From assembly GCA_963732385.1 (NCBI GenBank), contig CAVSZB010000003.1, positions 128,001-192,000 of the forward strand: a DNA stretch of 64,000 nt. The letters are read 5' to 3'. Of the stretch, positions 51,546-64,000 are shown piece by piece. The stretch is from an uncultured bacterium. Lineage in GTDB: Bacteria > Krumholzibacteriota > Krumholzibacteriia > LZORAL124-64-63. The notes under the pieces are model-generated. The model was not told where the DNA came from. It saw nothing but the letters and a program-made list of their open reading frames with translations, and did not search any database. The stretch's first letter is position 1; every line of letters starts with the position of its first letter. The translations under genes were made by a program, and so were the position numbers.

Positions 51546-52019
51546 ATGCGGCAGTATTTCGCCAATATCCGGCACGCGCTGCTCTCGACGCTGCAGGGAA
51601 TGGGCATCACCATCAAGCATGTGGTGAAGAAGCCGGTCACCCTGCAGTATCCGGACGAGCGCTGGGTGTTGCCCGAGCGTTTCCGCGGCTTCGTCCACCT
51701 TGATACCAACCGCTGCAACGCCTGCCTGCAGTGCGCCCGAGCCTGTCCGGTCTCCTGCATCTACATCGAGACTGCGGGCAAGGGCGTCGACCGGTACATG
51801 ACCCGCTACGCCGTGGATTTCAACAAGTGCATCTGGTGCGGTCTCTGCACCGAGCCGTGCCCGACCGACGCGGTCACCATGAGTCACGACTACGATCACG
51901 CGCTTTATTTCCGGCAGAAGCTGGTATACGAGTTCGTCTCGCCCGAGCGCCCAATCCCGACGCACAAGCAGAAGCGCGCGGAGCTCGGGATGTTCGTTGA
52001 AGAGGAGGAACACGAGTGA
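51546..52019 (+). CDS. nuoI: NADH-quinone oxidoreductase subunit I
   Basis: VTLQYPDE; two CxxCxxCxxxCP motifs. Confidence 0.95.
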   Translation: MRQYFANIRHALLSTLQGMGITIKHVVKKPVTLQYPDERWVLPERFRGFVHLDTNRCNACLQCARACPVSCIYIETAGKGVDRYMTRYAVDFNKCIWCGLCTEPCPTDAVTMSHDYDHALYFRQKLVYEFVSPERPIPTHKQKRAELGMFVEEEEHE

Positions 52020-52573
52020 CCGGCGACCTCGTCTTCTACGCGTTCGCCCTGCTGATCGTGCTGTCGGCCTTCTGCGTCGTGTTCAGCCGCAACATCGTGC
52101 ATGCCGGCTTCAGCCTGTTGTTCACGCTGTTCGGGGTGGCCGGACTGTACGCTCTGCTCGGCGCCGACTTTCTGGCCGTGACGCAGGTGATCGTCTACAT
52201 CGGCGGCATCCTGGTGCTCGTGCTGTTCACCGTGATGATGACGCGCATCCCGCGCGCCGGCTCCGGCGGCCGCGGTCTCGACCGCTTCGTGCCGGCCGGC
52301 ATCTTCGCGCTGATGCTCTTCGCGCTGCTCTACAAGGTGATTACCGGCACGACGTGGGCCGCGCGCGCGCCGGAGGCGGCTCAGGGCACTACCGCGCGCC
52401 TGGGCGCCCAATTCCTGACCCGCTTCGTCTTTCCGTTCGAATTCGTGTCGATCGTTCTGCTCGTCGCCATGATCGGCGCGGCGATCCTGATCCGTGAGCC
52501 GCGGCGCCAGGACCCGGCCGGTCTTGCCGGCGATGCCGGCGGCGACACAGCCGACAAGGAGGTGCGGTCGTGA
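52016..52573 (+). CDS. nuoJ: NADH-quinone oxidoreductase subunit J
   Basis: QVIVYIGGILVL, PFEFVS. Confidence 0.94.
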   Translation: MTGDLVFYAFALLIVLSAFCVVFSRNIVHAGFSLLFTLFGVAGLYALLGADFLAVTQVIVYIGGILVLVLFTVMMTRIPRAGSGGRGLDRFVPAGIFALMLFALLYKVITGTTWAARAPEAAQGTTARLGAQFLTRFVFPFEFVSIVLLVAMIGAAILIREPRRQDPAGLAGDAGGDTADKEVRS

Positions 52574-52878
52574 ACGTCGGCCTGGAGCACTTCCTCACTG
52601 TCGGCGCGGTGCTGTTCGGCCTGGGCGTCTTCGCCGTGATGACGCGGCGGAACGCGGTCGGGCTGCTGATGGGCGTGGAGCTGATTCTCAACGCCGCGAA
52701 CGTGAATTTCGTGGCCTTCGCGCGCTTCGTCGAGCACGGGCTGGACGGGCAGGTCGTGGCGGCCTTCGTGATCGTGCTGGCGGCCGCGGAGGCCGCGGTG
52801 GCGCTGGCCATCGTGCTCGCGATGTTCCGCAACTTCGGTACCGTGCACGTGGACGCCGCCAGCCGGTTGCAGCGATAG
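52570..52878 (+). CDS. nuoK: NADH-quinone oxidoreductase subunit K
   Basis: RRN, ELILNAAN, AAAEAAVALA. Confidence 0.95.
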   Translation: MNVGLEHFLTVGAVLFGLGVFAVMTRRNAVGLLMGVELILNAANVNFVAFARFVEHGLDGQVVAAFVIVLAAAEAAVALAIVLAMFRNFGTVHVDAASRLQR

Positions 52879-52942
52879 CGCCGGACGCGCCGCGTCGGCG
52901 CGCCGCGCCGGGCCCGCGGCCCGAAGGGGGAGCGCAGAAACG

Positions 52943-55120
52943 ATGACCGACACCGCCGTCCTGCAGACCGCCCTGACGATCCTGCTGCTGCCGATCGTCT
53001 CCTACGCCATCCTGTTCTTCCTGGGCCGCCGGCTGCCGCGGCAGGGGGACTGGCTCGGCGTGGGGCTGCTGGGCATCGCCTGGTTGCTGGCGCTGCGCAT
53101 TTTCTTCCACTTCTGGGGGCTGAACGACCCGGGGTACCGCGTCGAGGGGGTCTGGCGCTGGCTCGACCTCGGGGCTTTCCGCATCGACGCCGGCATCCTG
53201 GTCGACGGCATGACCGCCGTGATGCTGGTAGTGGTGACGACCGTCAGCTTCCTGGTCCACCTGTTCTCCACCGGATACATGCAGGGCGAGAAGCGCTATG
53301 AGCGGTACTTCGCGTTCCTGGGCTTCTTCACGTTCGCCATGCTCGGCATCGTACTGTCGAACAGCCTCTTCTTCCTGTACGTGTTCTGGGAACTGGTCGG
53401 CCTGGCCAGCTACCTGCTGATCGGCTTCTTCTTCTTCAAGCCGTCGGCCGCGGCCGCGAACAAGAAGGCGTTCCTGACCAACCGGGTGGGAGACTTCGGC
53501 TTCTTCTTCGGGATCCTGGCCCTCTTCACGGCGTGCGGGACGTTCAACTACCTCGAACTGTTCACGAAGGTGAGCCAGGGCGCTTTGACCGGCAGCGTGC
53601 TGACCTGGGCCGGCATCGGCCTGTTCATGGGCTGCGTCGGCAAGTCCGCCCAGGCGCCCCTGCACATCTGGCTGCCCGACGCCATGGAGGGCCCGACCCC
53701 GGTCAGCGCCCTCATCCACGCCGCCACGATGGTCGCCGCGGGCGTCTACATGGTGGCGCGCCTGCTGCCGCTGTTCGACCCGAACGCCCTGCTCGTCGTG
53801 GCTTACGTCGGTGCGATCACCGCTTTCCTCGCCGCGACCATCGCCATGGTGAAGACCGACATCAAGAAGTCGCTCGCCTACTCCACCATCAGCCAGCTCG
53901 GCTACATGGTGATGGCGATCGGGGTCGGCGGCGCGGCCGCGGGCATGTTCCATCTGACGACGCACGCCTTCTTCAAAGCGCTCCTTTTCCTCGGCGCCGG
54001 CTCGGTCATCCACGCCGTGCACACGCAGGAGATGCCCGAGATGGGCGGCCTGCGGCACAAGATGCCGATCACGTTCTGGACGTTCCTCATCGCCACGCTG
54101 GCGATCTCCGGCGTGCCCCTGTTTGCGGGCTTCTACAGCAAGGACGCCATTCTCGGCTCGGCGCTCGCCTTCGCCATGCTCAGCCCGGCGCACTTCCTGC
54201 CGTTTGCGCTGGCGCTGGCCGCGGCGGGCCTGACGGCTTTCTACATGTTCCGCATGGTGTTCCTCACCTTCACCGGCAAGCCGCGCGACCACCACAAATA
54301 CGAGCACGCGCACGAATCGCCCTGGGTGATAACGGCGCCCCTGGTGATGCTGGCGTTCCTGTCCGTGGTGAGCGCCGGCTGGCGCGGTCCGGCGGACGGC
54401 TGGTTCGCGCGCTTCGTCGGTCCGTATGACCTGGCCCGGATCGCGGCGGATCATGGCGGGCCGACAGCGTCGGCGCCGATCATGGTGGCGGCCCACGAGA
54501 CGGAAGCCGCGACGGAGCCGGCTGAAGCGGACGCCGGGGAGGCGCACGGCGAACCGGCGCATGCCGAGCCCCACGCCGCGGGGGACGGCGCGCACGCGGC
54601 GCCGGCCGGCGGCCACGGCGCCGTGGCGGGCCACGACGCGCACGTCGAGCACGTGCACCATGTGGCGCACCGGCTCGCCATGTATTTGTCGATCCTGGTG
54701 GCCGGCGCCGGCATCGGGTTGTCGTGGCTGACGTACCAGAAGGGGCGCATCAGCGCGCCGGCGATCCTGGCCCGGCTGCCGCGCCTGCACCATGTCCTGC
54801 AGAACATGTATTTCTTCGACCAATTCTACGCCGCCACGGTCTATCGCGGCACGCTCGGCTGGAGCCGGCTGTGCGGGTGGTTCGACCTGACGGTGGTTGA
54901 CGGTATCGTGAACGGTTGTGGCTATCTGACGCGCTTCACGAGCTGGGTCGTGGGCCTGTTCGATCTGCGCGGGGTCGACGGCTTCGTGAACGGCATCGCC
55001 TGGGTTCTGCAGGGGACGGGCGAGGGCTTCCGGCGCGTACAGACCGGCCGGGTGCAGACCTATCTGGTGTTCGTCTGCTTCTCGGTCGTGCTTCTGATTT
55101 TTGTCTTCAGGGCCCTGTAA
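52943..55120 (+). CDS. nuoL: NADH-quinone oxidoreductase subunit L
   Basis: KSAQAPLHIWLPDAMEGPTPVSALIHAATMV, HAFFKALLFL. Confidence 0.96.
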   Translation: MTDTAVLQTALTILLLPIVSYAILFFLGRRLPRQGDWLGVGLLGIAWLLALRIFFHFWGLNDPGYRVEGVWRWLDLGAFRIDAGILVDGMTAVMLVVVTTVSFLVHLFSTGYMQGEKRYERYFAFLGFFTFAMLGIVLSNSLFFLYVFWELVGLASYLLIGFFFFKPSAAAANKKAFLTNRVGDFGFFFGILALFTACGTFNYLELFTKVSQGALTGSVLTWAGIGLFMGCVGKSAQAPLHIWLPDAMEGPTPVSALIHAATMVAAGVYMVARLLPLFDPNALLVVAYVGAITAFLAATIAMVKTDIKKSLAYSTISQLGYMVMAIGVGGAAAGMFHLTTHAFFKALLFLGAGSVIHAVHTQEMPEMGGLRHKMPITFWTFLIATLAISGVPLFAGFYSKDAILGSALAFAMLSPAHFLPFALALAAAGLTAFYMFRMVFLTFTGKPRDHHKYEHAHESPWVITAPLVMLAFLSVVSAGWRGPADGWFARFVGPYDLARIAADHGGPTASAPIMVAAHETEAATEPAEADAGEAHGEPAHAEPHAAGDGAHAAPAGGHGAVAGHDAHVEHVHHVAHRLAMYLSILVAGAGIGLSWLTYQKGRISAPAILARLPRLHHVLQNMYFFDQFYAATVYRGTLGWSRLCGWFDLTVVDGIVNGCGYLTRFTSWVVGLFDLRGVDGFVNGIAWVLQGTGEGFRRVQTGRVQTYLVFVCFSVVLLIFVFRAL

Positions 55121-55150
55121 GAGGGCGGCAACTCGAGAGGAGCGGCACGC

Positions 55151-56647
55151 ATGGGTGAGCACGTGTTGTCCTGGATGACCTTCTTCCCCCTCCTCGGGGC
55201 GGCGGTGATCGCCTTCCTGCCCCGCGAGCGGAAGACGCTCATCAAGTACGTGGCGGCTGCGGCCACGGCCGTGCCGCTGCTGCTGGGCGTCCAGGTCTTC
55301 ATCGGCTTCGATCGCGGCACGGCGGCGATGCAGCTGGTGGAGAAAGCGGCCTGGATCCCGCCGTTCAACATCGAGTACTTCATGGGCGTCGATGGCCTGA
55401 GCGTGCCGATGGTGCTGCTGACGGCGCTGCTCTCGTTCATCTGCGTGATCGCCTCGTGGGGCATCGACAAGGCGCCCAAGGGCTATTTCTCGCTTTTCCT
55501 GCTGCTCGAGACCGGCATGATGGGCGTCTTCTGCGCGCTCGACTTCTTCCTCTTCTACATGTTCTGGGAAGTCATGCTTCTGCCGATGTACTTTCTCATC
55601 GGCATCTGGGGCGGGCCGCGCAAGGAATACGCCGCGATCAAGTTCTTCCTCTACACGCTCTCCGGTTCCGTGCTGATGCTGTTGGCGATGCTGGCGCTGT
55701 ACTTCAACGTGAAGGACCCCGCCACCGGAGGCCACACCTTCAACATGCTGCACATGATGAGCCAGGCCAACCACTCGCCCTGGCTGCTCGGAGGCCACGT
55801 GCGGCACCTCGTCTGGATGGCGCTGTTCATCGGTTTCGCCATCAAGGTGCCGATCTTCCCGTTCCACACCTGGCTGCCCGACGCCCACGTCGAGGCGCCG
55901 ACCGCCGTGTCGGTCATCCTGGCTGGCGTGCTGCTGAAGATGGGCACCTACGGCATTTTGCGGATCAGCTATCCGATGTTGCCGGACGCCGCGCGCTGGT
56001 TCGCGCTGCCGCTGGCGGTGCTGGGGATGATCAACATCATCTACGGCGCCTTCTGCGCCATGGCGCAAAGCGACATGAAGAAGCTGGTGGCCTATTCATC
56101 GATCAGCCATATGGGCTACGTGCTGCTCGGCATGGCGGCCTTCACGACGCAGGGCATCAACGGCGCCGTATTCCAGATGTTCAATCACGGCACGATCACC
56201 GCCATGCTGTTCCTCGGCGTCGGCGTGATCTACGACCGGGCGCATCATCGCCGGATCGACGGCTTCGGAGGCCTGATGCAGCAGATGCCGGTCTACGGCA
56301 GCGTCTTCTCGTTCGCCCTGTTCGCGGCGCTCGGCCTGCCGGGCCTGTCGGGATTCATCAGTGAGGCGCTGGTCTTCATGGGCGCCTTCCAGACGTTCCC
56401 CGTGATCACGATCATCAGCGGGCTCGGCATCGTCATCGGCGCGGCCTACGTGCTGTGGCTGTTGCAGCGGGTCTTCCTGGGCGAGAAGAATCCCCAGTAC
56501 GACAACCTGCCCGACATCAGCGCGCGCGAACTGGTGACGCTGGTGCCGATCGGCCTGATCGTCCTGCTGCTGGGCGTGTTCCCGATGCCGGTGTTGAATC
56601 TGATGAAGGTGACGTTGAACAACCTGATCACCGTCGTGGCCAACTGA
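55151..56647 (+). CDS. nuoM: NADH-quinone oxidoreductase subunit M
   Basis: KVPIFPFHTWLPDAHVEAPT, KKLVAYSSISHMG. Confidence 0.96.
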   Translation: MGEHVLSWMTFFPLLGAAVIAFLPRERKTLIKYVAAAATAVPLLLGVQVFIGFDRGTAAMQLVEKAAWIPPFNIEYFMGVDGLSVPMVLLTALLSFICVIASWGIDKAPKGYFSLFLLLETGMMGVFCALDFFLFYMFWEVMLLPMYFLIGIWGGPRKEYAAIKFFLYTLSGSVLMLLAMLALYFNVKDPATGGHTFNMLHMMSQANHSPWLLGGHVRHLVWMALFIGFAIKVPIFPFHTWLPDAHVEAPTAVSVILAGVLLKMGTYGILRISYPMLPDAARWFALPLAVLGMINIIYGAFCAMAQSDMKKLVAYSSISHMGYVLLGMAAFTTQGINGAVFQMFNHGTITAMLFLGVGVIYDRAHHRRIDGFGGLMQQMPVYGSVFSFALFAALGLPGLSGFISEALVFMGAFQTFPVITIISGLGIVIGAAYVLWLLQRVFLGEKNPQYDNLPDISARELVTLVPIGLIVLLLGVFPMPVLNLMKVTLNNLITVVAN

Positions 56648-56675
56648 CCGGCCTCGCGCCAAGGAGGCGCCGCCC

Positions 56676-58181
56676 TTGACGCCGATTGCCCTGATCGCAC
56701 CGAGCTGGGGGGACCTGAGGCATTTTCTGCCCGAGACCGTCCTCGCGGCCACGTTCCTGCTGGCGCTGCTCGCCGACCTGGTCGTGCGGGGCCGTCGTCC
56801 GGCCGTGTCGTTCACCGTATCCCTGGCCGGCTGCCTGCTGGCGCTCGCGCTTGGCGTGGCCGGCCTGCCGGATCGCGCCCACGCCGTTCTCGGCTCATCG
56901 ATCGTCGTGGACGGGCTGGCCGGGTTCTTCCGCATACTGTTCGCCGGCGTGGCTGTCGTGACGATCCTGTTCTCCTGGGCCAGCGAGGAGATCATGGGTC
57001 GGCGCCGCGAGAACAAGGGCGAGTTCTACGCCCTGGTCGCGCTGATGACCTTCGGCATGTGCGTGATGGCCGAGGCGCGCGATCTGGTCATGCTTTACCT
57101 GTCCCTTGAGCTGACAAGCCTCACCAGCTACGTGATGGCCGGCTACATGCGCACCAGCCTCCGCTCGACCGAAGCGTCGTTGAAGTACGTCATTTTCGGC
57201 GCGGTCTCGTCGGGCATCATGCTCTACGGCCTTTCGCTTCTCTATGGCCTGACCGGCGCGGTGACGTTCGAGGGCATTCGCACGGCGCTGGTGGCCGGCC
57301 GCGCGGACAATTTTGCATTGCTCGTGGTGTTGGTTCTGGTCATGGTCGGCATGGGCTACAAAATCGCCGCGGTGCCGTTCCACTTCTGGTGTCCCGACGT
57401 CTACGAAGGGGCGCCGACGCCAGTGGCGGCCCTCTTTTCCGTGGGCCCGAAGGCGGCCGGCTTCGCGCTGATGATCCGCTTCTTCTACTCGACGCTGCTC
57501 GCCCCGAACGTTGGCGCGGCGCCCGGCGCGCTGGTCGGTCCGACCGACTGGCCGCTGCTCATCGCGGTGCTCTCGGTGGTGACGATGACCTACGGAAATC
57601 TCGTGGCGCTGCGCCAGACCAACGTCAAAAGGCTGCTCGCCTACTCCAGCATCGCCCACGTGGGCTATCTGCTGATGGGCTTTTTGATGCTTACGCGCGG
57701 CGGCCTGCAGGCGATCCTGTTCTATCTGCTGGTCTACGCGATCATGAATCTCGGCGCCTTCCTCTTCGTGATCGCGCTCAACAACCGCCTGCACAGCGAG
57801 GAGATCGACGACTACGCCGGACTCGGCTCGCGCGCCCCCGCGGCGGCGATCATGATGACGATCTTCCTCTTTTCGCTGACCGGCCTGCCGCCCACCGCCG
57901 GCTTCATCGGGAAGTTCTACCTTTTCGCCGAAGTGGTGAACCGCCACTACTTCTGGCTCGCGGTGATCGGCGCCCTCAACAGCGTGGTAAGCCTTTTCTA
58001 CTATATGAAAATCGTCAGGGCGATGTACTTCGCGCCCGGGTCGGGGGAGGAGATCCGTCTCGCGCCACTGCATTTGGCCGTGCTCGGACTGCTGGCGGCG
58101 CCGACCCTGCTGCTTGGCGTCTACTGGACGCCCCTGAAGGCACTGGCCGACCGGGCCATCGCCGCTTTTTCCCTGGGCTAG
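56676..58181 (+). CDS. nuoN: NADH-quinone oxidoreductase subunit N
   Basis: EASLKY, PFHFWCPDVYEGAP, KRLLAYSSIAH. Confidence 0.96.
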   Translation: MTPIALIAPSWGDLRHFLPETVLAATFLLALLADLVVRGRRPAVSFTVSLAGCLLALALGVAGLPDRAHAVLGSSIVVDGLAGFFRILFAGVAVVTILFSWASEEIMGRRRENKGEFYALVALMTFGMCVMAEARDLVMLYLSLELTSLTSYVMAGYMRTSLRSTEASLKYVIFGAVSSGIMLYGLSLLYGLTGAVTFEGIRTALVAGRADNFALLVVLVLVMVGMGYKIAAVPFHFWCPDVYEGAPTPVAALFSVGPKAAGFALMIRFFYSTLLAPNVGAAPGALVGPTDWPLLIAVLSVVTMTYGNLVALRQTNVKRLLAYSSIAHVGYLLMGFLMLTRGGLQAILFYLLVYAIMNLGAFLFVIALNNRLHSEEIDDYAGLGSRAPAAAIMMTIFLFSLTGLPPTAGFIGKFYLFAEVVNRHYFWLAVIGALNSVVSLFYYMKIVRAMYFAPGSGEEIRLAPLHLAVLGLLAAPTLLLGVYWTPLKALADRAIAAFSLG

Positions 58182-58348
58182 GCGGCGCCCGGGAGCGTTT
58201 CTGCGGTTAGGTTGCGGCGGGATGGCACAACATGCGATCCCGCCGTTCCATGTCCGGCGGACGACGCGGGGGAAGCGGCGGATCCGGCCGTTCTGTGGCA
58301 TATTACTGATTGGTATTTGGGAGAGTCGGCCAGTCCGGGGAGGATCCC

Positions 58349-59155
58349 ATGCGATTGAGCGTACTGTTTCCACTGCTGTCGGTGTGCCTGTTCGCTTCAT
58401 CCTGCGCCACGGTGCCGATCACCGGACGACGGCAGCTCAGCCTGGTCCCCGAGTCGCAGATGATGGCCACGAGCTACCAGCAGTACGACGAGTTCATCAA
58501 GAGCAACCAGCTCAGCACCGACACCCGCCAGACCGCCCTGGTGCAGGGCGTCGGCCGGCGTGTCCAGGGGGCCGTCGAACAGTACTTCGCCCGGCAGGGA
58601 CAGACGCAGCGCCTGGCTGACTATCGCTGGGAGTTCAACCTCGTGGAGAGTCCGGAGGTGAACGCCTGGTGCATGCCGGGCGGCAAGGTGGTCGTCTATT
58701 CAGGACTGTTGCCGGTGGCGCAGAACGAGGCGGGTCTGGCCGTGGTCGTGGGCCATGAGATCGCGCACGCCATCGCCGACCATGGCGGCGAGCGCATGAG
58801 CCAGCAGCTTCTGGCACAGTTCGGCGGCCTGGCGCTCGACACGGCGCTGCAGAGCCGCCCCGACCAGACCCGCCAGCTCTGGATGGGCGTTTACGGCGCC
58901 GGAGCCCAGTACGGCGTACTGATGCCGTTCAGCCGGCAGCAGGAGAGTGAAGCGGACCGCCTCGGCCTTATCTTCATGGCCATGGCCGGCTACGACCCGC
59001 AAGAGGCGGTCACGTTCTGGACCCGCATGGCTGCGGCATCCGGCGGCCAGAAGCCGCCCGAATTCATGAGCACGCATCCGTCGGACGCAACGCGGATCGC
59101 CAACCTGAACAAGCTGCTGCCGGAGGCGACCGGGTACTTCCAGCAAAAGCCGTGA
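58349..59155 (+). CDS. M48 family metallopeptidase lipoprotein
   Basis: Lipobox ASSC, VNAWCMPGG, HEIAH, ESEAD, STHP. Confidence 0.93.
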   Translation: MRLSVLFPLLSVCLFASSCATVPITGRRQLSLVPESQMMATSYQQYDEFIKSNQLSTDTRQTALVQGVGRRVQGAVEQYFARQGQTQRLADYRWEFNLVESPEVNAWCMPGGKVVVYSGLLPVAQNEAGLAVVVGHEIAHAIADHGGERMSQQLLAQFGGLALDTALQSRPDQTRQLWMGVYGAGAQYGVLMPFSRQQESEADRLGLIFMAMAGYDPQEAVTFWTRMAAASGGQKPPEFMSTHPSDATRIANLNKLLPEATGYFQQKP

Positions 59156-59194
59156 GAGAATTTCAGGCATCCGGATGTAGGCGTTCATAAGGGA

Positions 59195-59267
59195 CGCACC
59201 AACAGAAGCGGCCCCCCCGTGCGGGGGGGCCGCTCCCTTCAGACTCGGCCGTGAAGCAACCGGATTA
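59195..59267 (+). repeat. 73-bp direct repeat, copy 1 (stop codon and terminator of the 59265-62396 gene)
   Basis: Identical to 63048-63120; contains the hairpin AGCGGCCCCCCC-GTGC-GGGGGGGCCGCT. Confidence 0.95.
59201..59234 (-). terminator. Intrinsic terminator
   Basis: 12-bp GC stem followed by TCTGTT on the minus strand. Confidence 0.75.
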
Positions 59268-62200
59268 CTTCACCAGCGTCATCTTCTCCATCTTCTCGTA
59301 GCTGCCGGCCTTCAGGCTGTAGAAGTACACGCCCGAGGAGACCGACTGACCGGTGGAGTTGCGGCCGTCCCAGATCACGGAGTGCGTCGTCGCATCCATG
59401 TTCTCGTTCAGCAGCGTCTTCACCAGTTCGCCGCGCACGTTGTAGATCTTCAGCTCAACCTGGCTCTTGGCCGGCAGGGTGAACTCGATCTTCGTGCTCG
59501 GGTTGAACGGGTTCGGGAAGTTCCTGGCCGTGAATACTGCCTCGGGCGTCACGCCCACTGCAGCCCCGCCAGGCAAATGACCGAAGAAGGCCAGAACGTC
59601 CTGCAAAATCTGGGTACGGACCGGGAGCCCGCCGGTCGGGGCGCCGTTCCAGATGTAGCTCAGGTCGTAGGGCATGAAAACGACGCGGGCCGTGTTCGCC
59701 GTGACGTTGTTGTAGACCGCCGCCGCGTACGGGTAGACCCCGAGGGCGCCGGTCGGGCTGGTGAACTGGGCAATCCGGACCGCCGGAGCAACCACGGTGA
59801 TGGCGTCAAAGTCGTTGATGCCGCCCTCACAGCCACCCTGCACCATGTAGGGCTTGGTCAGCACCGGCGCGTCCGCCACGGTGATCGGGCTCACGTGTGG
59901 CGTCAGCTGGCCACCAATGAGCGGCGCGAGGTAGAAGTTGTTGTATGTGACCCCGAACCACTTGTCCCTGAAGGCAACCGCGTTGACGCCGGAGGCCGAC
60001 AGGTCCTGGATGATGTTATCGCCGGTGGCAAAGAAGTTCTTGCCGCCCTGCTGCAGCCAGGAATCCACCACGTAGATATCGTTGCCGGAATCCGCTTTCT
60101 TAATATCCCCGTTGGAGAGCGTAATAGAGCCCAGATTTCCGGGAGTGTAAAGCAACGTGTTGTAACCGGACATCTGCAGCGCGTTCGTCCGGCCGCCGAG
60201 GCCGTTGCCCAGGCCGGAGGACGGGCCGGCATTGCAGTAGATGTCATAGTCGATGCCCTGACGGAAGCCGAGATTGTCCAGGGCAGCGAACCACTCATCC
60301 TGGTTGGCGCGGTCCTGAGAATCGTCCCAGAACAGCAGGTGAGGCTGCCCAACGTCCTTCTCCGCCGTAATCAGCGTCGGCAGGGCGTCAATCTTGTAGA
60401 GTTCATAATAGCGGTACGAGTCGTAGTGCAGGTCGCCAGGGAAATAGGCGAAACCGGTGGTATCCCTGGGCATATGCGTGACACCGGGAACCCCGCCCAC
60501 GGAGTCCTCGGCTCTGAAGTAGTAATGGAAACTGTCGCCGGGGAAGAAGAACCCGGTGTCGGGCAGGTCGAATTGATAGAGGTTCGGCAAGCGGACTGGC
60601 GGAACGGACGTATTCCAGACCGTGTCGCCGACCACGGTGCCGTAGAGATAATTACCGTCCTGGGTAAAGCCGGCCGGAATGGCCGTACGGCAGGTGGAGT
60701 CGAACAGAGGATTCATCTTCATCTTGACGTGCATGGTGGGCCGACCGGTAAGCACAGCACCGTTGCGGACCGCCTTGACTGTCACGACGACAGAGTCGCC
60801 AATGTCGCTCTCGAGAGTGTCGATGTTCTGCGCGATGTCCACGCGCACGGAATTTTTGGTCAGATCCGCATAGTCGATTTCAGGATTTTCCGGCCAGCCG
60901 TCGTTGAACAGGTCCCAGGCACCCAACACCGTAATCGTGGGGCCATAGAAGGGGAAGGCGCACAGCATCACGTTGTCGAAATACGGTGCCGGCGTGTTAT
61001 CGTTGCCGAGATAATCATCGGGCCACGTCTCGTTCACGCCCAGCGAGATCTGGACCGCATTGCGGCCGGCGTTCAGCAGGGCGGTCACCGGAGTTGCATA
61101 CGGAAAGCGGCCATACGAGGCCAGGCCGCCGCCGTAGTACACGGTATTGAAATCCTTCCAGCCGCCGGGCCAGGTGAGCCCGCCGTCCATGGAGGTGCGG
61201 ATGCCAAAGAAGTAGAAGATCCCGTTGGAGAGCGGAAGGTGGGTGTAATTGTCCCAAGTGTAATTGGCGCCGTCGTAACCCCCATCAGCACCCCCGGGCC
61301 ATTCCATTACAGGGGACCAGACGTTGTTGTTGATCGCGTAAGTGTCGCCGGCGAGACCACCGGTCGTCGTCACGCCCCAGCCACCGGGGCCGTAGTTCCA
61401 GGTCGTGCACTGGGTGCCGCCCGTTCCGGGGACCACGATGCCATCGTCGATGAACGCCATTTGCGGTGTGCTGTTGGTGTTGCACTCGTCGGCGTCCCCC
61501 AGCAACGGCCACACCTTGTGGAATTCGCCGACATACGGCGGCTTGACGTTGACCCAGTGCACCGGATCGCCGGGCTGGAAAGTATCATAAGTCTGCCGCA
61601 CCTCTGCGTGCAGTTTGCCGAACAGCACCTCGATGTTGTCGAGCTGCGCGAGGCCATTGCTGGGCCAGAAGCAGTCGCCGTCGGACCAGCCGCCATCGGA
61701 AAAACCTAGCCAGCGCAGGTGGATCTCGTTGTTGAGGTCCCCGACGTAGCTGTCCGGTTCTACGGTGAAGGCCACTGCCACAGCCACGGCGACATTCACG
61801 CCGTCCCAGGCGCTCGTCGGTTTCGCCTGTTCCATAACGCCGAGCTTCTCGACCTGGAGAATCAGATAGTCGTAGCGCTTCTCGGAGTTGGAGTTGAAAA
61901 TCGCCCTCACGGTGACGTCCGTGGGCACGGTATTGTCCACGACCTGGCCGTACCAATCGAGCCAAAGGTTGTAGTTGTTGTCGTAGCCTTCGAGCGGATC
62001 CTCTGGACTGCAGGATCCGGAGAAAACCTCACCGCACCACATGGCGAGGTTGGCGGCGCCGAGTGGATCCAGGTTCGCGCAATTGTAGTCGGAGATGTGC
62101 CAGATGGCCGTCATGTTCGTATAGTCTTTGCCGGTCCACCCCTGGTCGTCCGCAACCCCCAAAGCAGTCTGGAACTTGCCGTCCAGCCGGGCCGGGCCGC

Positions 62201-62396
62201 CCATGATATAAACTGTATCGGCCGCAGCCTTGCCGCTGCTTATGGGCCCGCCAGAAAGTATGCTGGTGTCGGCGCCCCTGGCGTCAAATATGTGACGCTG
62301 GGCCTGTTGACTGTCATCCCTGGAAGAATCGTCAGCGATAGCGAGGCTGGCGAAGAGCGCCAGAGACAGACATACGGTAAATGTGAGTCTCTTCAT
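59265..62396 (-). CDS. Large secreted protein of unknown function with FlgD-Ig/T9SS-like CTD
   Basis: Signal peptide MKRLTFTVCLSLALFASLAIA; NFPNPFNP...KMTLVK; Asp/Gly/Trp-rich beta domains. Confidence 0.85.
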   Translation of the reverse strand: MKRLTFTVCLSLALFASLAIADDSSRDDSQQAQRHIFDARGADTSILSGGPISSGKAAADTVYIMGGPARLDGKFQTALGVADDQGWTGKDYTNMTAIWHISDYNCANLDPLGAANLAMWCGEVFSGSCSPEDPLEGYDNNYNLWLDWYGQVVDNTVPTDVTVRAIFNSNSEKRYDYLILQVEKLGVMEQAKPTSAWDGVNVAVAVAVAFTVEPDSYVGDLNNEIHLRWLGFSDGGWSDGDCFWPSNGLAQLDNIEVLFGKLHAEVRQTYDTFQPGDPVHWVNVKPPYVGEFHKVWPLLGDADECNTNSTPQMAFIDDGIVVPGTGGTQCTTWNYGPGGWGVTTTGGLAGDTYAINNNVWSPVMEWPGGADGGYDGANYTWDNYTHLPLSNGIFYFFGIRTSMDGGLTWPGGWKDFNTVYYGGGLASYGRFPYATPVTALLNAGRNAVQISLGVNETWPDDYLGNDNTPAPYFDNVMLCAFPFYGPTITVLGAWDLFNDGWPENPEIDYADLTKNSVRVDIAQNIDTLESDIGDSVVVTVKAVRNGAVLTGRPTMHVKMKMNPLFDSTCRTAIPAGFTQDGNYLYGTVVGDTVWNTSVPPVRLPNLYQFDLPDTGFFFPGDSFHYYFRAEDSVGGVPGVTHMPRDTTGFAYFPGDLHYDSYRYYELYKIDALPTLITAEKDVGQPHLLFWDDSQDRANQDEWFAALDNLGFRQGIDYDIYCNAGPSSGLGNGLGGRTNALQMSGYNTLLYTPGNLGSITLSNGDIKKADSGNDIYVVDSWLQQGGKNFFATGDNIIQDLSASGVNAVAFRDKWFGVTYNNFYLAPLIGGQLTPHVSPITVADAPVLTKPYMVQGGCEGGINDFDAITVVAPAVRIAQFTSPTGALGVYPYAAAVYNNVTANTARVVFMPYDLSYIWNGAPTGGLPVRTQILQDVLAFFGHLPGGAAVGVTPEAVFTARNFPNPFNPSTKIEFTLPAKSQVELKIYNVRGELVKTLLNENMDATTHSVIWDGRNSTGQSVSSGVYFYSLKAGSYEKMEKMTLVK

Positions 62397-63047
62397 GTTT
62401 TCCCCCAAACGTTGATCAAATCAACGCAATCAAGGTTGCGCACACGTCACCGGCCGCCACTCACTCAGCCGGGCGCAATTCAAGGGAGGCCAAAGTTCAT
62501 TCCCGCACAGTTGCGCGGCGCAAAGCCGGGCGAGAAATGAAGCTTACCTCCTTCGAATTGGAACGTGGGCGTATGGAACTTAGCAACAGTACCGAATGTC
62601 AAGTGCGCGGACGGCTGAGAGAGTGGAACCCAAAGACAGCGCGCATTGCACGAACTTTTGCCCATGAGCCACTACATGAGTCACAAAGGTGAGATTGGCC
62701 TCCTTTTCGTTTTGTGTGTTTGGTGCGGTCGCAAAAGCATCCTTCTCCAAACCCTCCCTAACCTCAATGCCAGGCCAAGACCGGAATGGTCCAGACAGCA
62801 GCGCGGCACTGACGATAGGCCCAGCAGCAGGTCGGCGAGGATGGTATTGCAGAGTCTTCCCGTCGGGCTTTGCCCGCGGGAATCAGCGAGGATCCTCAGA
62901 TTACCAGATTGCCCTTCCCTCTGTCAACGGTCCCCTGCATGGAAGTGGGGAATAACTTCACTGCTTATTATTAAACTTGCCGTTTCGCCATATATAAGAA
63001 CCTTTTAGGTTTGGCATTGTCTCGAGTTGTGAAATCCCCGGATCGGG

Positions 63048-63120
63048 CGCACCAACAGAAGCGGCCCCCCCGTGCGGGGGGGCCGCTCCCTTCAGACTCG
63101 GCCGTGAAGCAACCGGATTA
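63048..63120 (+). repeat. 73-bp direct repeat, copy 2, abutting the IS110 left end
   Basis: Identical to 59195-59267; identity stops after CGGATTA. Confidence 0.95.
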
Positions 63121-64000
63121 GACATAATGGAACGGCTGGGCCCCTCGGGTATCGTGTGTTAGTCCGCACGGACCAGGGACACTAGGGAGCCGAAACTCCC
63201 GCTCACGAAAGGACCCAGCCATGACACACGATAGCACAGCGACCGTTTGGGTGGGCATGGATGTTCACCAGGAGTCCATCACCGCGGCGATCCTCTTTGG
63301 AGACAAGGACATCCCGGAGATTGTCCGGTTGCCAGGGGACCTCAACGCGGTTCGCCGGCTCTTCCGCCGCTTGACCAAGCAGGGCTCCCCGCGGGCATGC
63401 TACGAGGCCTCGGGTGCAGGCTACGTCCTGCAGCGGGCCCTGGACCACGATGGGTTCCAGTGCGAGGTGATCGCCCCGAGTCTGATCCCCCGCTGCCCGG
63501 GCGATCACCGCAAGACCGATCGCCTGGATGCCGTGCGCTTGGCGCGCATGTATCGCAGCGGCCATCTGCGGGCGGTGACGATACCAGATGAGGAGCAAGA
63601 GGCGGTACGCCAGCTCGTGCGATGCCGACTGTCGCTGCAGCGTCAGATCGTGCGCAGCAAGCATCGGATCGTCCGGGTGCTGGCTACCCACGGACATCGT
63701 TTCACCGGGACCAAAAGCAATTGGACGAAGCAGCATCGCGCCTGGCTGGCCACGTTGCGCCGCGAGATGACGGGCCCGCTGCAGACGGTCCTGGCCTACG
63801 ACCTCGACCACCTGGAGTACCTCGAGTCTCAGCAGCGGTCGCTCGACGCCGAGATCGAGCAGTGGTCCTGTCGCGAGCCCTGGCGGGCGACCGTCGAGGC
63901 GCTGCAGTGCTTCCGCGGCATCAAGACCCTGACGGCGATGACGTTGGTCACCGAGATCGGAGACATCCGTCGCTTCAGTCACCCGGACCGGCTGATGGGG
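63121..64000 (+). mobile_element. IS110-family insertion sequence (left end; truncated by the window)
   Basis: Boundary inferred from where identity with the empty-site copy ends; CATAAT -10-like box at 63123-63128; transposase follows. Confidence 0.85.
63221..64000 (+). CDS. IS110-family DEDD recombinase/transposase (3'-partial; not in the ORF track)
   Basis: Manual translation MTHDSTATVWVGMDVHQESI...CYEASGAG...KTDRLDA...FRGIKTLTAMTLVTEIGDIRRF; open to the window end. Confidence 0.93.
   Translation, partial: MTHDSTATVWVGMDVHQESITAAILFGDKDIPEIVRLPGDLNAVRRLFRRLTKQGSPRACYEASGAGYVLQRALDHDGFQCEVIAPSLIPRCPGDHRKTDRLDAVRLARMYRSGHLRAVTIPDEEQEAVRQLVRCRLSLQRQIVRSKHRIVRVLATHGHRFTGTKSNWTKQHRAWLATLRREMTGPLQTVLAYDLDHLEYLESQQRSLDAEIEQWSCREPWRATVEALQCFRGIKTLTAMTLVTEIGDIRRFSHPDRLMG

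What the first reader, a model, noticed from the sequence alone, without database searches (positions are those of the whole stretch)
59195..63220. IS110 inserted at the stop codon in a perfect 73-bp duplicate of a gene end, with the empty target site 3.85 kb away
Seen: 59195-59267 equals 63048-63120 exactly. In copy 1 the last three bases TTA are the TAA stop of the 1043-aa secreted protein, and the sequence continues CTTCACCAG (L-V-K on the minus strand). In copy 2 the same TTA is followed directly by the IS110 left end. Known: IS110 elements are RNA-guided (bridge/seek RNA), sequence-specific and often target repeated sequences. Inference: a tandem paralogue with an identical 3' end lies beyond the IS, and the element targets CGGATTA^CTTCAC, the junction between the conserved LVK CTD end and the terminator. 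Empty and filled sites side by side define the target directly. The insertion could alter the paralogue's C-terminus or termination.
Basis: partly seen in the sequence, partly recalled or inferred. Interest (0 to 1): 0.78.

Follow-up and report, generated by a model that had tools for sequence, protein, structure and literature searches.

The report
Jumping gene homing to stop codons
An RNA-guided jumping gene lands exactly on the stop signal of a large family of secreted-protein genes and brings its own replacement stop signal and likely transcription terminator, so the host protein is left unchanged.

Summary
The 73-bp match is real, but it is only the shared end of a 3.9-kb unit repeated three times in tandem. 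The element is a 1,474-bp IS1111-type IS110-family insertion sequence. Past its right end lies the predicted paralogue. All 3 of 3 identical genome copies sit in the stop codon of genes ending in a T9SS/FlgD-like C-terminal domain. The element's last bases read as a new TGA, so the protein is unchanged. A hairpin with a T-rich tail near the right end faces the host gene. Relatives form one clade; 57 of 63 distinct sites with readable flanks are such gene ends, against 1 of 50 outside it. A downstream two-loop RNA carries a guide that pairs with the target (302 of 350 positions; shuffles 154±9) and changes when the target changes. A second lineage (41% identical) sits at another secreted-protein end motif in 14 of 17 sites. 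The target is about 8 nt (YTA-YTTSA), not CGGATTA^CTTCAC. Whether guide plus selection fully explains the preference is open. An earlier scan note reported similar homing in another genome.

The parts
59195..59267 (.). 73-bp repeat copy 1: 3' end of tandem unit 1 (terminator hairpin plus stop codon); an empty, guide-matching site at 59265-59272
59207..59234 (-). Native GC hairpin followed by a T-rich tail in the host-gene direction (terminator-like; function inferred)
   Evidence: I1 arms; tail read
59265..62396 (-). 1043-aa putative secreted protein with FlgD_ig / T9SS type A-like C-terminal domain, ending ...MTLVK*; paralogue 1 of 3 in the array
59192..63044 (.). Tandem unit 1 (3,853 bp), 88% identical to units 2 and 3 beyond the window over about 3.5 kb
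63048..63120 (.). 73-bp repeat copy 2: native terminator region of paralogue 2, now pushed 1,474 bp away from that gene's stop
63120..63137 (+). Element left end: 7-nt extension (63120-63126) and 11-bp subterminal inverted repeat (63127-63137); supplies the -10-like box of the circle-junction promoter
   Evidence: boundary agrees with the 1,474-nt skip with ends AG..TC
63221..64000 (+). First 260 of 371 codons of the DEDD IS110-family transposase (continues to G000:C3:192336)
   Evidence: NF033542, 239 bits vs cut-off 140
63120..64000 (+). The element as far as the window holds it; it runs on to G000:C3:192593. Beyond the window: predicted two-loop guide RNA at C3:192347-192507 (top-strand target guide 192376-192384, bottom-strand guide ending 192417, donor-matching segment 192470-192476); then at C3:192527-192593 a hairpin with T-rich tail facing the host gene, a -35-like box, the right inverted repeat and the 3-nt extension that, with the core A, forms the new TGA stop of paralogue 2

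Best explanation
An active-looking IS1111-type element of the IS110 family. Shown from sequence: a 1,474-bp element with a DEDD transposase, 11-bp subterminal inverted repeats with 7- and 3-nt extensions, and a structured non-coding RNA region downstream of the transposase. Inferred from the family: it excises as a circle whose joined ends make a promoter (TTGACT-17 nt-CATAAT), and transposase plus RNA find the target by base pairing. Shown by covariation: one guide pairs with the top strand over the core and the next 5 nt, and a second matches the 3 nt on the left. The target (YTA-YTTSA) is the reverse strand of 'hydrophobic codon-Lys codon-TAA/TAG', the usual end of this phylum's T9SS/FlgD-like cargo genes. 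The element goes in antisense at the A of the stop codon, and its last bases rebuild a stop (TGA here), so the protein is unchanged. In one subgroup a hairpin with a T tail about 40 nt inside the right end probably replaces the displaced terminator (inferred). The near-exclusive use of these gene ends most likely comes from a guide tuned to the commonest harmless site, plus loss of lineages with insertions at the many matching sites inside genes (inferred).
For: 3 of 3 identical copies at CTD stop codons, each rebuilt as TAA/TAG before and TGA after. Clade of 38 of 55 transposase rows with SH-aLRT 100 (quick tree). Of 71 rows assigned to the clade by RNA profile, 63 are distinct with at least 20 nt of right flank: 55 are CTD ends by HMM or Pfam and 2 more by terminal motif only; outside it 1 of 50, a decayed clade member. 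The left triplet is a stop in 27 of 27 CTD sites with a left flank. Element ends read as stops in 117 of 117 parsed ends (102 TGA, 13 TAG, 2 TAA). Guide-target Watson-Crick pairs at +1..+5: 302 of 350 vs shuffles 154±9, max 191; within CTD sites alone 140 of 160 vs 114±4. Guides switch with Arg-ending (L020, L145, L151) and TGA-ending (L010, L020) targets. RNA: 15 of 31 consensus pairs have compensatory changes; z = -3.2. Hairpin plus at least 4 T in 25 of 32 long-ended CTD elements. One clade member (L021) sits inside a gene at a sense-strand Tyr-Phe site, as guide-plus-selection predicts. Independent metagenome contigs of related strains bridge the left (X3) and right (X3, X5) junctions.
Against: The guide alone is too short. 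The genome has 164 empty YTAYTTCA sites: 8 CTD stops, 8 other stops, 16 intergenic, 132 in predicted genes (home-made gene caller). Among operon-terminal stops matching YTAYTTSA, 8 are non-CTD and 7 are CTD, yet non-CTD gene ends are rare in the clade, so selection may not explain everything. Six of 63 clade sites are not CTD ends (L021, L068, L089, L091, L092, L205). The 22 short-ended CTD elements have no hairpin by my test, and the stock terminator scan did not flag the hairpin. Core matching is not strict: an X3 contig and L169 have a TCA flank where the top-strand guide ends in TA (for X3 judged from its listed differences). The donor loop and element end disagree in L076, L087 and L136. 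Stop-like ends are shared with distant relatives that are not CTD-specific, so they may be a pre-existing trait. Rows are related and not independent. No RNA, circle or transposition was observed.
Confidence: 0.85

Rival explanations
1. Same RNA-guided element, but it actively prefers gene ends through a second determinant beyond the 8-nt guide. Candidates: extra bases read by the protein (A at +8), a nearby terminator hairpin, or transcription arriving from the opposite strand.
For: 57 of 63 clade sites are CTD ends although such sites were 11 of 200 empty YTAYTTSA sites in the one genome counted. A at +8 in 39 of 41 clade sites; requiring it raises the CTD share to 11 of 52 sites and 11 of 14 stops.
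Against: A at +8 follows from the hydrophobic codon of the protein motif. No guide position covaries with target positions beyond +6. L021 shows that an intragenic insertion happens. Only surviving insertions are seen.
Confidence: 0.25
2. The element targets the 73-bp repeat or its terminator hairpin (REP-like targeting).
For: This copy sits at the edge of the repeat, which has a strong hairpin and several copies. The other C3 copy also has a hairpin-like sequence on its left (by eye).
Against: The other two copies have unrelated left flanks. The left guide matches only 3, weakly 4, positions over 36 sites. Conservation is on the coding side.
Confidence: 0.03
3. Mis-assembly at 63120 between repeat copies and a multicopy IS.
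For: Both the array and the element are repeats; no laid contig spans the whole stretch.
Against: The right flank continues into a distinct paralogue, 82% and 90% identical to its neighbours. Exact element ends recur at two other loci. Contigs from other runs bridge each junction, and one skips exactly 1,474 nt (this may be a paralogue's empty site).
Confidence: 0.02

Closest known systems
IS1111-group elements with a downstream seekRNA (ISEc11, ISKpn4, ISPa11; PMC11187229, sections read)
   Same: Subterminal inverted repeats with 7+3-nt extensions, long non-coding region after the transposase, junction promoter, top-strand guide 5' of the bottom-strand guide, natural re-programming between relatives.
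   Different: Targets there are a short linear site, attC sites or REP repeats. Here it is the stop codon of a host gene family, rebuilt by the element end. The transposase is 371 aa against the 330-350 aa given for IS1111 members.
ISEc21 (IS110 group; PMC11187229 passage)
   Same: Guide reads conserved codons of a multi-copy gene family (around the second D of IS3-family DDE transposases).
   Different: ISEc21 inserts within the coding region of another mobile element's gene and has an upstream RNA. This clade inserts at the end of host genes and leaves the protein intact.
IS621 bridge-RNA recombinase (PMC11208160 passages; PDB 8wt6, weak hit E 3e-7)
   Same: Two-loop RNA with target- and donor-matching segments around a short core.
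   Different: RNA in the left end, REP targets, distant sequence.
ISSfr2-type annotated IS110-family transposases (42.6% identity)
   Same: Closest named transposase among the 25 listed plasmid hits; all 5,000 counted hits were under 60% identical.
   Different: Far outside the clade; its targets were not examined.
Phage and island integrases that rebuild the 3' end of the target gene (recalled, no call)
   Same: Insertion at a gene end made harmless by supplying the displaced end.
   Different: Protein-specified att sites, usually in tRNA genes; here RNA-specified and only a stop codon and hairpin are supplied.

Membership tests
IS110 family (broad) | DEDD RuvC-like transposase with C-terminal S-G motif domain | tested here: met
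   PF01548 above cut-off; NF033542 239 bits vs 140 over residues 10-362; GL-x5-SSG visible in the translation.
IS110 family (broad) | No target duplication beyond a short core; specific site and one orientation | tested here: met
   Single shared A; 3 of 3 copies in the same orientation at the same motif.
IS1111 group | 11-13-bp subterminal inverted repeats with 7-nt left and 3-nt right extensions | tested here: met
   11-bp perfect repeat, 7 and 3 nt outside; criterion from PMC11187229.
IS1111 group | Long non-coding region downstream of the transposase | tested here: met
   About 100 nt upstream vs about 257 nt downstream.
IS1111 group | Guide order: top-strand complement 5' of bottom-strand match | tested here: met
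   criterion.
IS1111 group | Promoter formed at the circle junction | tested here: inconclusive
   Joined ends give a -35/-10-like pair at 17 nt; the circle and its activity were not observed.
IS1111 group | Transposase groups with IS1111 references (typically 330-350 aa) | not tested
   No ISfinder reference set in the tree; the length is 371 aa. PMC11187229 notes IS110-group members that also have a downstream region.
IS1111 group | RNA from the non-coding region binds the transposase and is needed for movement | not testable with these tools
   Only structure and covariation evidence; no Rfam match near a gathering score.
T9SS type A cargo (host genes) | C-terminal sorting domain | tested here: met
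   TIGR04183 above cut-off for both paralogues tested; FlgD_ig and Por_Secre_tail.
T9SS type A cargo (host genes) | Host encodes a type IX secretion machine that exports them | not tested
   The genome was not searched for T9SS components.

The most novel reading that the evidence does not exclude
IS1111-type elements in these bacteria have repeatedly evolved guides for the C-terminal sorting-signal codons of secreted-protein families (two lineages, two different motifs, plus one switch between motifs). They also sense gene ends through a determinant beyond the RNA guide, and their decayed ends are kept by the host as ready-made stop-plus-terminator modules.
Probability: 0.2. Interest if true: 0.8.

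Novelty: new variant of a known kind. Interest (0 to 1): 0.6.

Why it matters
It shows one thing natural bridge/seek-RNA guides can evolve toward: the conserved last codons of a roughly 90-member host gene family, with the element repairing the stop it lands on. The set of 70 natural guide-target pairs gives pairing rules (about 8 nt, G-U tolerated, little beyond +6) for a branch under 60% identical to the 5,000 best hits in the plasmid collection searched. It makes a clear question testable: do such short guides get their apparent specificity from selection or from a second determinant? Recombinases that insert at a stop codon without changing the protein could also be useful tagging tools. 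I did not find this target type described in nine literature searches (open-licence library only), but ISfinder entries and paper supplements were not seen.

Tried and rejected
Element boundary TAGAC...CCATAT (the plain BLAST boundary): rejected, because it makes the empty sites of two copies read Trp instead of stop. The 73-bp repeat as a decayed element end: not supported; it scored under 8 bits against a right-end profile, whereas a true relic at C8:445414 scored 34.9. Longer guide pairing: none beyond +6, and the left guide matches only 3-4 nt. A second donor guide (GTCTGA): it fits this element's junction but stays constant when donor ends change, so it is not claimed. Rfam: 3 weak matches, all far below gathering score. 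The stock promoter/terminator scan found no promoter and did not flag the right-end hairpin. Viral contigs: 2 pattern matches, neither had a parsable element end. The first guide-parsing regex failed and was replaced by an alignment. Rows dropped: 21 of 189 pattern rows as duplicates; 38 of 168 as not element-like (all 11 CCA-core rows among them); 20 of 98 aligned rows flagged as not intact or misaligned before the guide test; 7 clade rows with under 20 nt of flank and 1 duplicate site. The careful tree did not finish; the quick tree is used. No RNA run was laid (the one listed held 0.05 of the words). on the host gene family listed only unrelated papers (20 of 81 shown). Look-ups of earlier findings by place and by sequence were empty.
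Full report
OBSERVATION. The exact repeat 59195-59267 = 63048-63120 is confirmed. Copy 1 ends in the stop of a 1043-aa minus-strand protein with a FlgD/T9SS-like C-terminal domain (CTD). Copy 2 runs into an IS110-family transposase locus. The window is G000:C3:128001-192000. Some loci from genomes of the same family are identical to records titled Ca. Krumholzibacteriia, others to records with different titles, so the host is probably of that phylum (inference).

WHAT THE REPEAT IS. Reading past the window shows three tandem units of 3,853, 3,971 (without the element) and 3,957 bp, 88-92% identical over the main blocks. They encode paralogues 82-90% identical. The 73 bp are the most conserved part of the unit end: a GC hairpin and the stop codon. 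The element interrupts unit 2, and its right flank is the predicted ...TLVK gene end.

THE ELEMENT. It is 1,474 bp with a 371-aa transposase, and three identical copies lie in the genome. It has 11-bp subterminal inverted repeats with 7 and 3 nt outside, a long non-coding region after the gene, and ends that would join into a -35/-10-like pair 17 nt apart. These are the IS1111-group features given in PMC11187229 (abstract, introduction and first results sections; passages; one section). All three copies sit at the stop codon of CTD genes, antisense. Left flanks share only YTA. Taking the shared A as core, the empty sites read TAA, TAG, TAG and the filled sites read TGA, supplied by the element. 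The C-terminus is therefore unchanged. Contigs from other public runs bridge the left junction (X3) and the right junction (X3, X5), and one X5 contig skips exactly 1,474 nt with ends AG..TC. These are related strains, none spans the whole stretch, and the skip may be a paralogue's empty site.

RELATIVES. A quick tree of 55 transposase rows puts all CTD-associated elements in one clade (38 rows, SH-aLRT 100, long stem). By RNA profile 71 of 168 non-duplicate rows belong to it. Sixty-three are distinct with at least 20 nt of flank: 54 hit an HMM built from 64 unoccupied CTDs of the own genome, 1 more has a Pfam hit, and 2 short ones end in the motif, 57 in all. The exceptions are L021 (inside a gene, sense strand, Tyr-Phe codons), L068 (end of a ..KALYR gene), L089 and L092 (another IS at the junction), L091 and L205 (unclear). 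Outside the clade 1 of 50 is a CTD end, and it is a decayed clade member. The phylum search is biased to CTD-rich hosts, but the host-blind metagenome rows show the same: 18 of 19 distinct clade sites with flank (my count). Rows are related, so these counts are not independent trials.

THE GUIDE. The downstream region folds into an outer stem with two internal-loop arms; 15 of 31 consensus pairs show compensatory change in 36 sequences. In 70 distinct guide-target pairs the 9-nt segment in the first loop pairs with target positions +1..+5 at 302 of 350 positions (shuffles 154±9, max 191). The signal holds within CTD sites (140 of 160 vs 114±4) and non-CTD sites (162 of 190 vs 82±6), and fades at +6. 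The second segment matches the left flank at -2 in 36 of 36 and at -3 in 32 of 36, weakly at -4, and not beyond. Guides change with Arg-ending and TGA-ending targets. The order of the two matches is that reported for IS1111 seekRNAs. The donor loop usually matches the element end, with 3 clear mismatches (L076, L087, L136) and a changed end in L068; the first parser required this match, so it is partly circular.

STOP AND TERMINATOR. Distant relatives share this, and a few of them also sit at Pfam-supported gene ends (FecCD, guanylate cyclase, TPR, porin), so it predates the CTD habit. A strong hairpin followed by at least 4 T in the host direction lies about 30-45 nt inside the right end in 25 of 32 long-ended CTD elements. 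The three own copies score 3 T only because the stem was extended over two T. It is absent from all 22 short-ended ones. Terminator function is inferred.

WHY CTD GENES? The genome has 90 CTD genes; 36 end in Lys, against 144 of 3,084 predicted genes overall. The guide therefore reads an enriched gene end. But 164 empty YTAYTTCA sites exist, 132 inside predicted genes and 8 at CTD stops. Three of three at CTDs has probability 0.0002 if all sites count, 0.025 without intragenic sites and 0.17 among stops only. Guide plus purifying selection is the simplest account and L021 fits it. The rarity of non-CTD gene ends across the clade leaves room for a second determinant that I could not identify.

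CONVERGENCE. A second element in the genome (C6:54036, 41% identical) sits at the stop of a gene ending ..WSAVKSLYR. In a phylum search, 14 of 17 recognisable ends among 32 stretches are at this second motif. L068 of the first clade has switched to it with a matching guide. Decayed right ends remain at other CTD stops: one clear (C8:445414) and two weak.

KNOWN AND NEW. Mechanism and layout are those of IS1111-group elements; membership by phylogeny was not tested. Known targets in the papers read are short linear sites, attC, REP repeats and, for ISEc21, catalytic codons of IS3-family transposases (PMC11208160 passages). The passages seen of PMC3196728 and PMC2516522 did not describe this. 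Nine searches found no description of homing to host stop codons or to T9SS-like cargo ends (listings and abstract starts only for most hits); supplements and ISfinder were not seen and could list such targets. An earlier AI note of this scan (e1-767677) reached a similar reading in another genome; it is unchecked and not independent support. Verdict: real, a new variant of a known kind, interest 0.6.

Noticed in passing
G000:C6:53885-55399 (L212/L214): Second IS110-family lineage (41% identical) inserted at the stop of genes ending W/F-G-x-V/I-K-x-L/M-Y/F-R; 14 of 17 recognisable ends in the phylum search. The protein carrying that short C-terminal motif had no NCBIfam hit; the motif ends 14 predicted genes here.
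   Followed up: partly
G000:C8:445414, C3:169062, C7:1313178: Decayed right ends of related elements left at other CTD stop codons, keeping TGA and a hairpin; only the C8 one scores clearly (34.9 bits).
   Followed up: partly
L089:1138 and L092:1938: In two genomes a different IS110-like element (transposase C-terminus on the opposite strand) abuts the exact right end of this clade's element, as if one element targets the other's junction.
   Followed up: no
L021:2816-3150: Clade member inserted in the sense direction inside a reading frame that itself looks like a divergent CTD gene, at Tyr-Phe codons matching the guide.
   Followed up: partly
L091 and L154: Clade members with a re-programmed guide and a matching non-CTD target of unknown nature.
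   Followed up: no
G000:C3:187192-200514; C4:87467-90457; C7:172753-175704: Five paralogues (72-90% identical) of a roughly 1,000-aa secreted protein with no Pfam match outside the CTD in the copy scanned; three are in tandem with their upstream regions, followed by a fourth terminator copy with no gene.
   Followed up: no
L118, L124, L192, L207: Distant relatives outside the clade also sit at the stops of ordinary genes (FecCD permease, cyclase, porin, TPR protein), hinting at a wider stop-codon habit; most others had no Pfam-supported gene end.
   Followed up: partly
window 51546-58181 (+) and 58310-59155 (+): NADH dehydrogenase-like gene cluster (named from the translations, recalled) and an M48 peptidase gene converging on the array; ordinary.
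   Followed up: no
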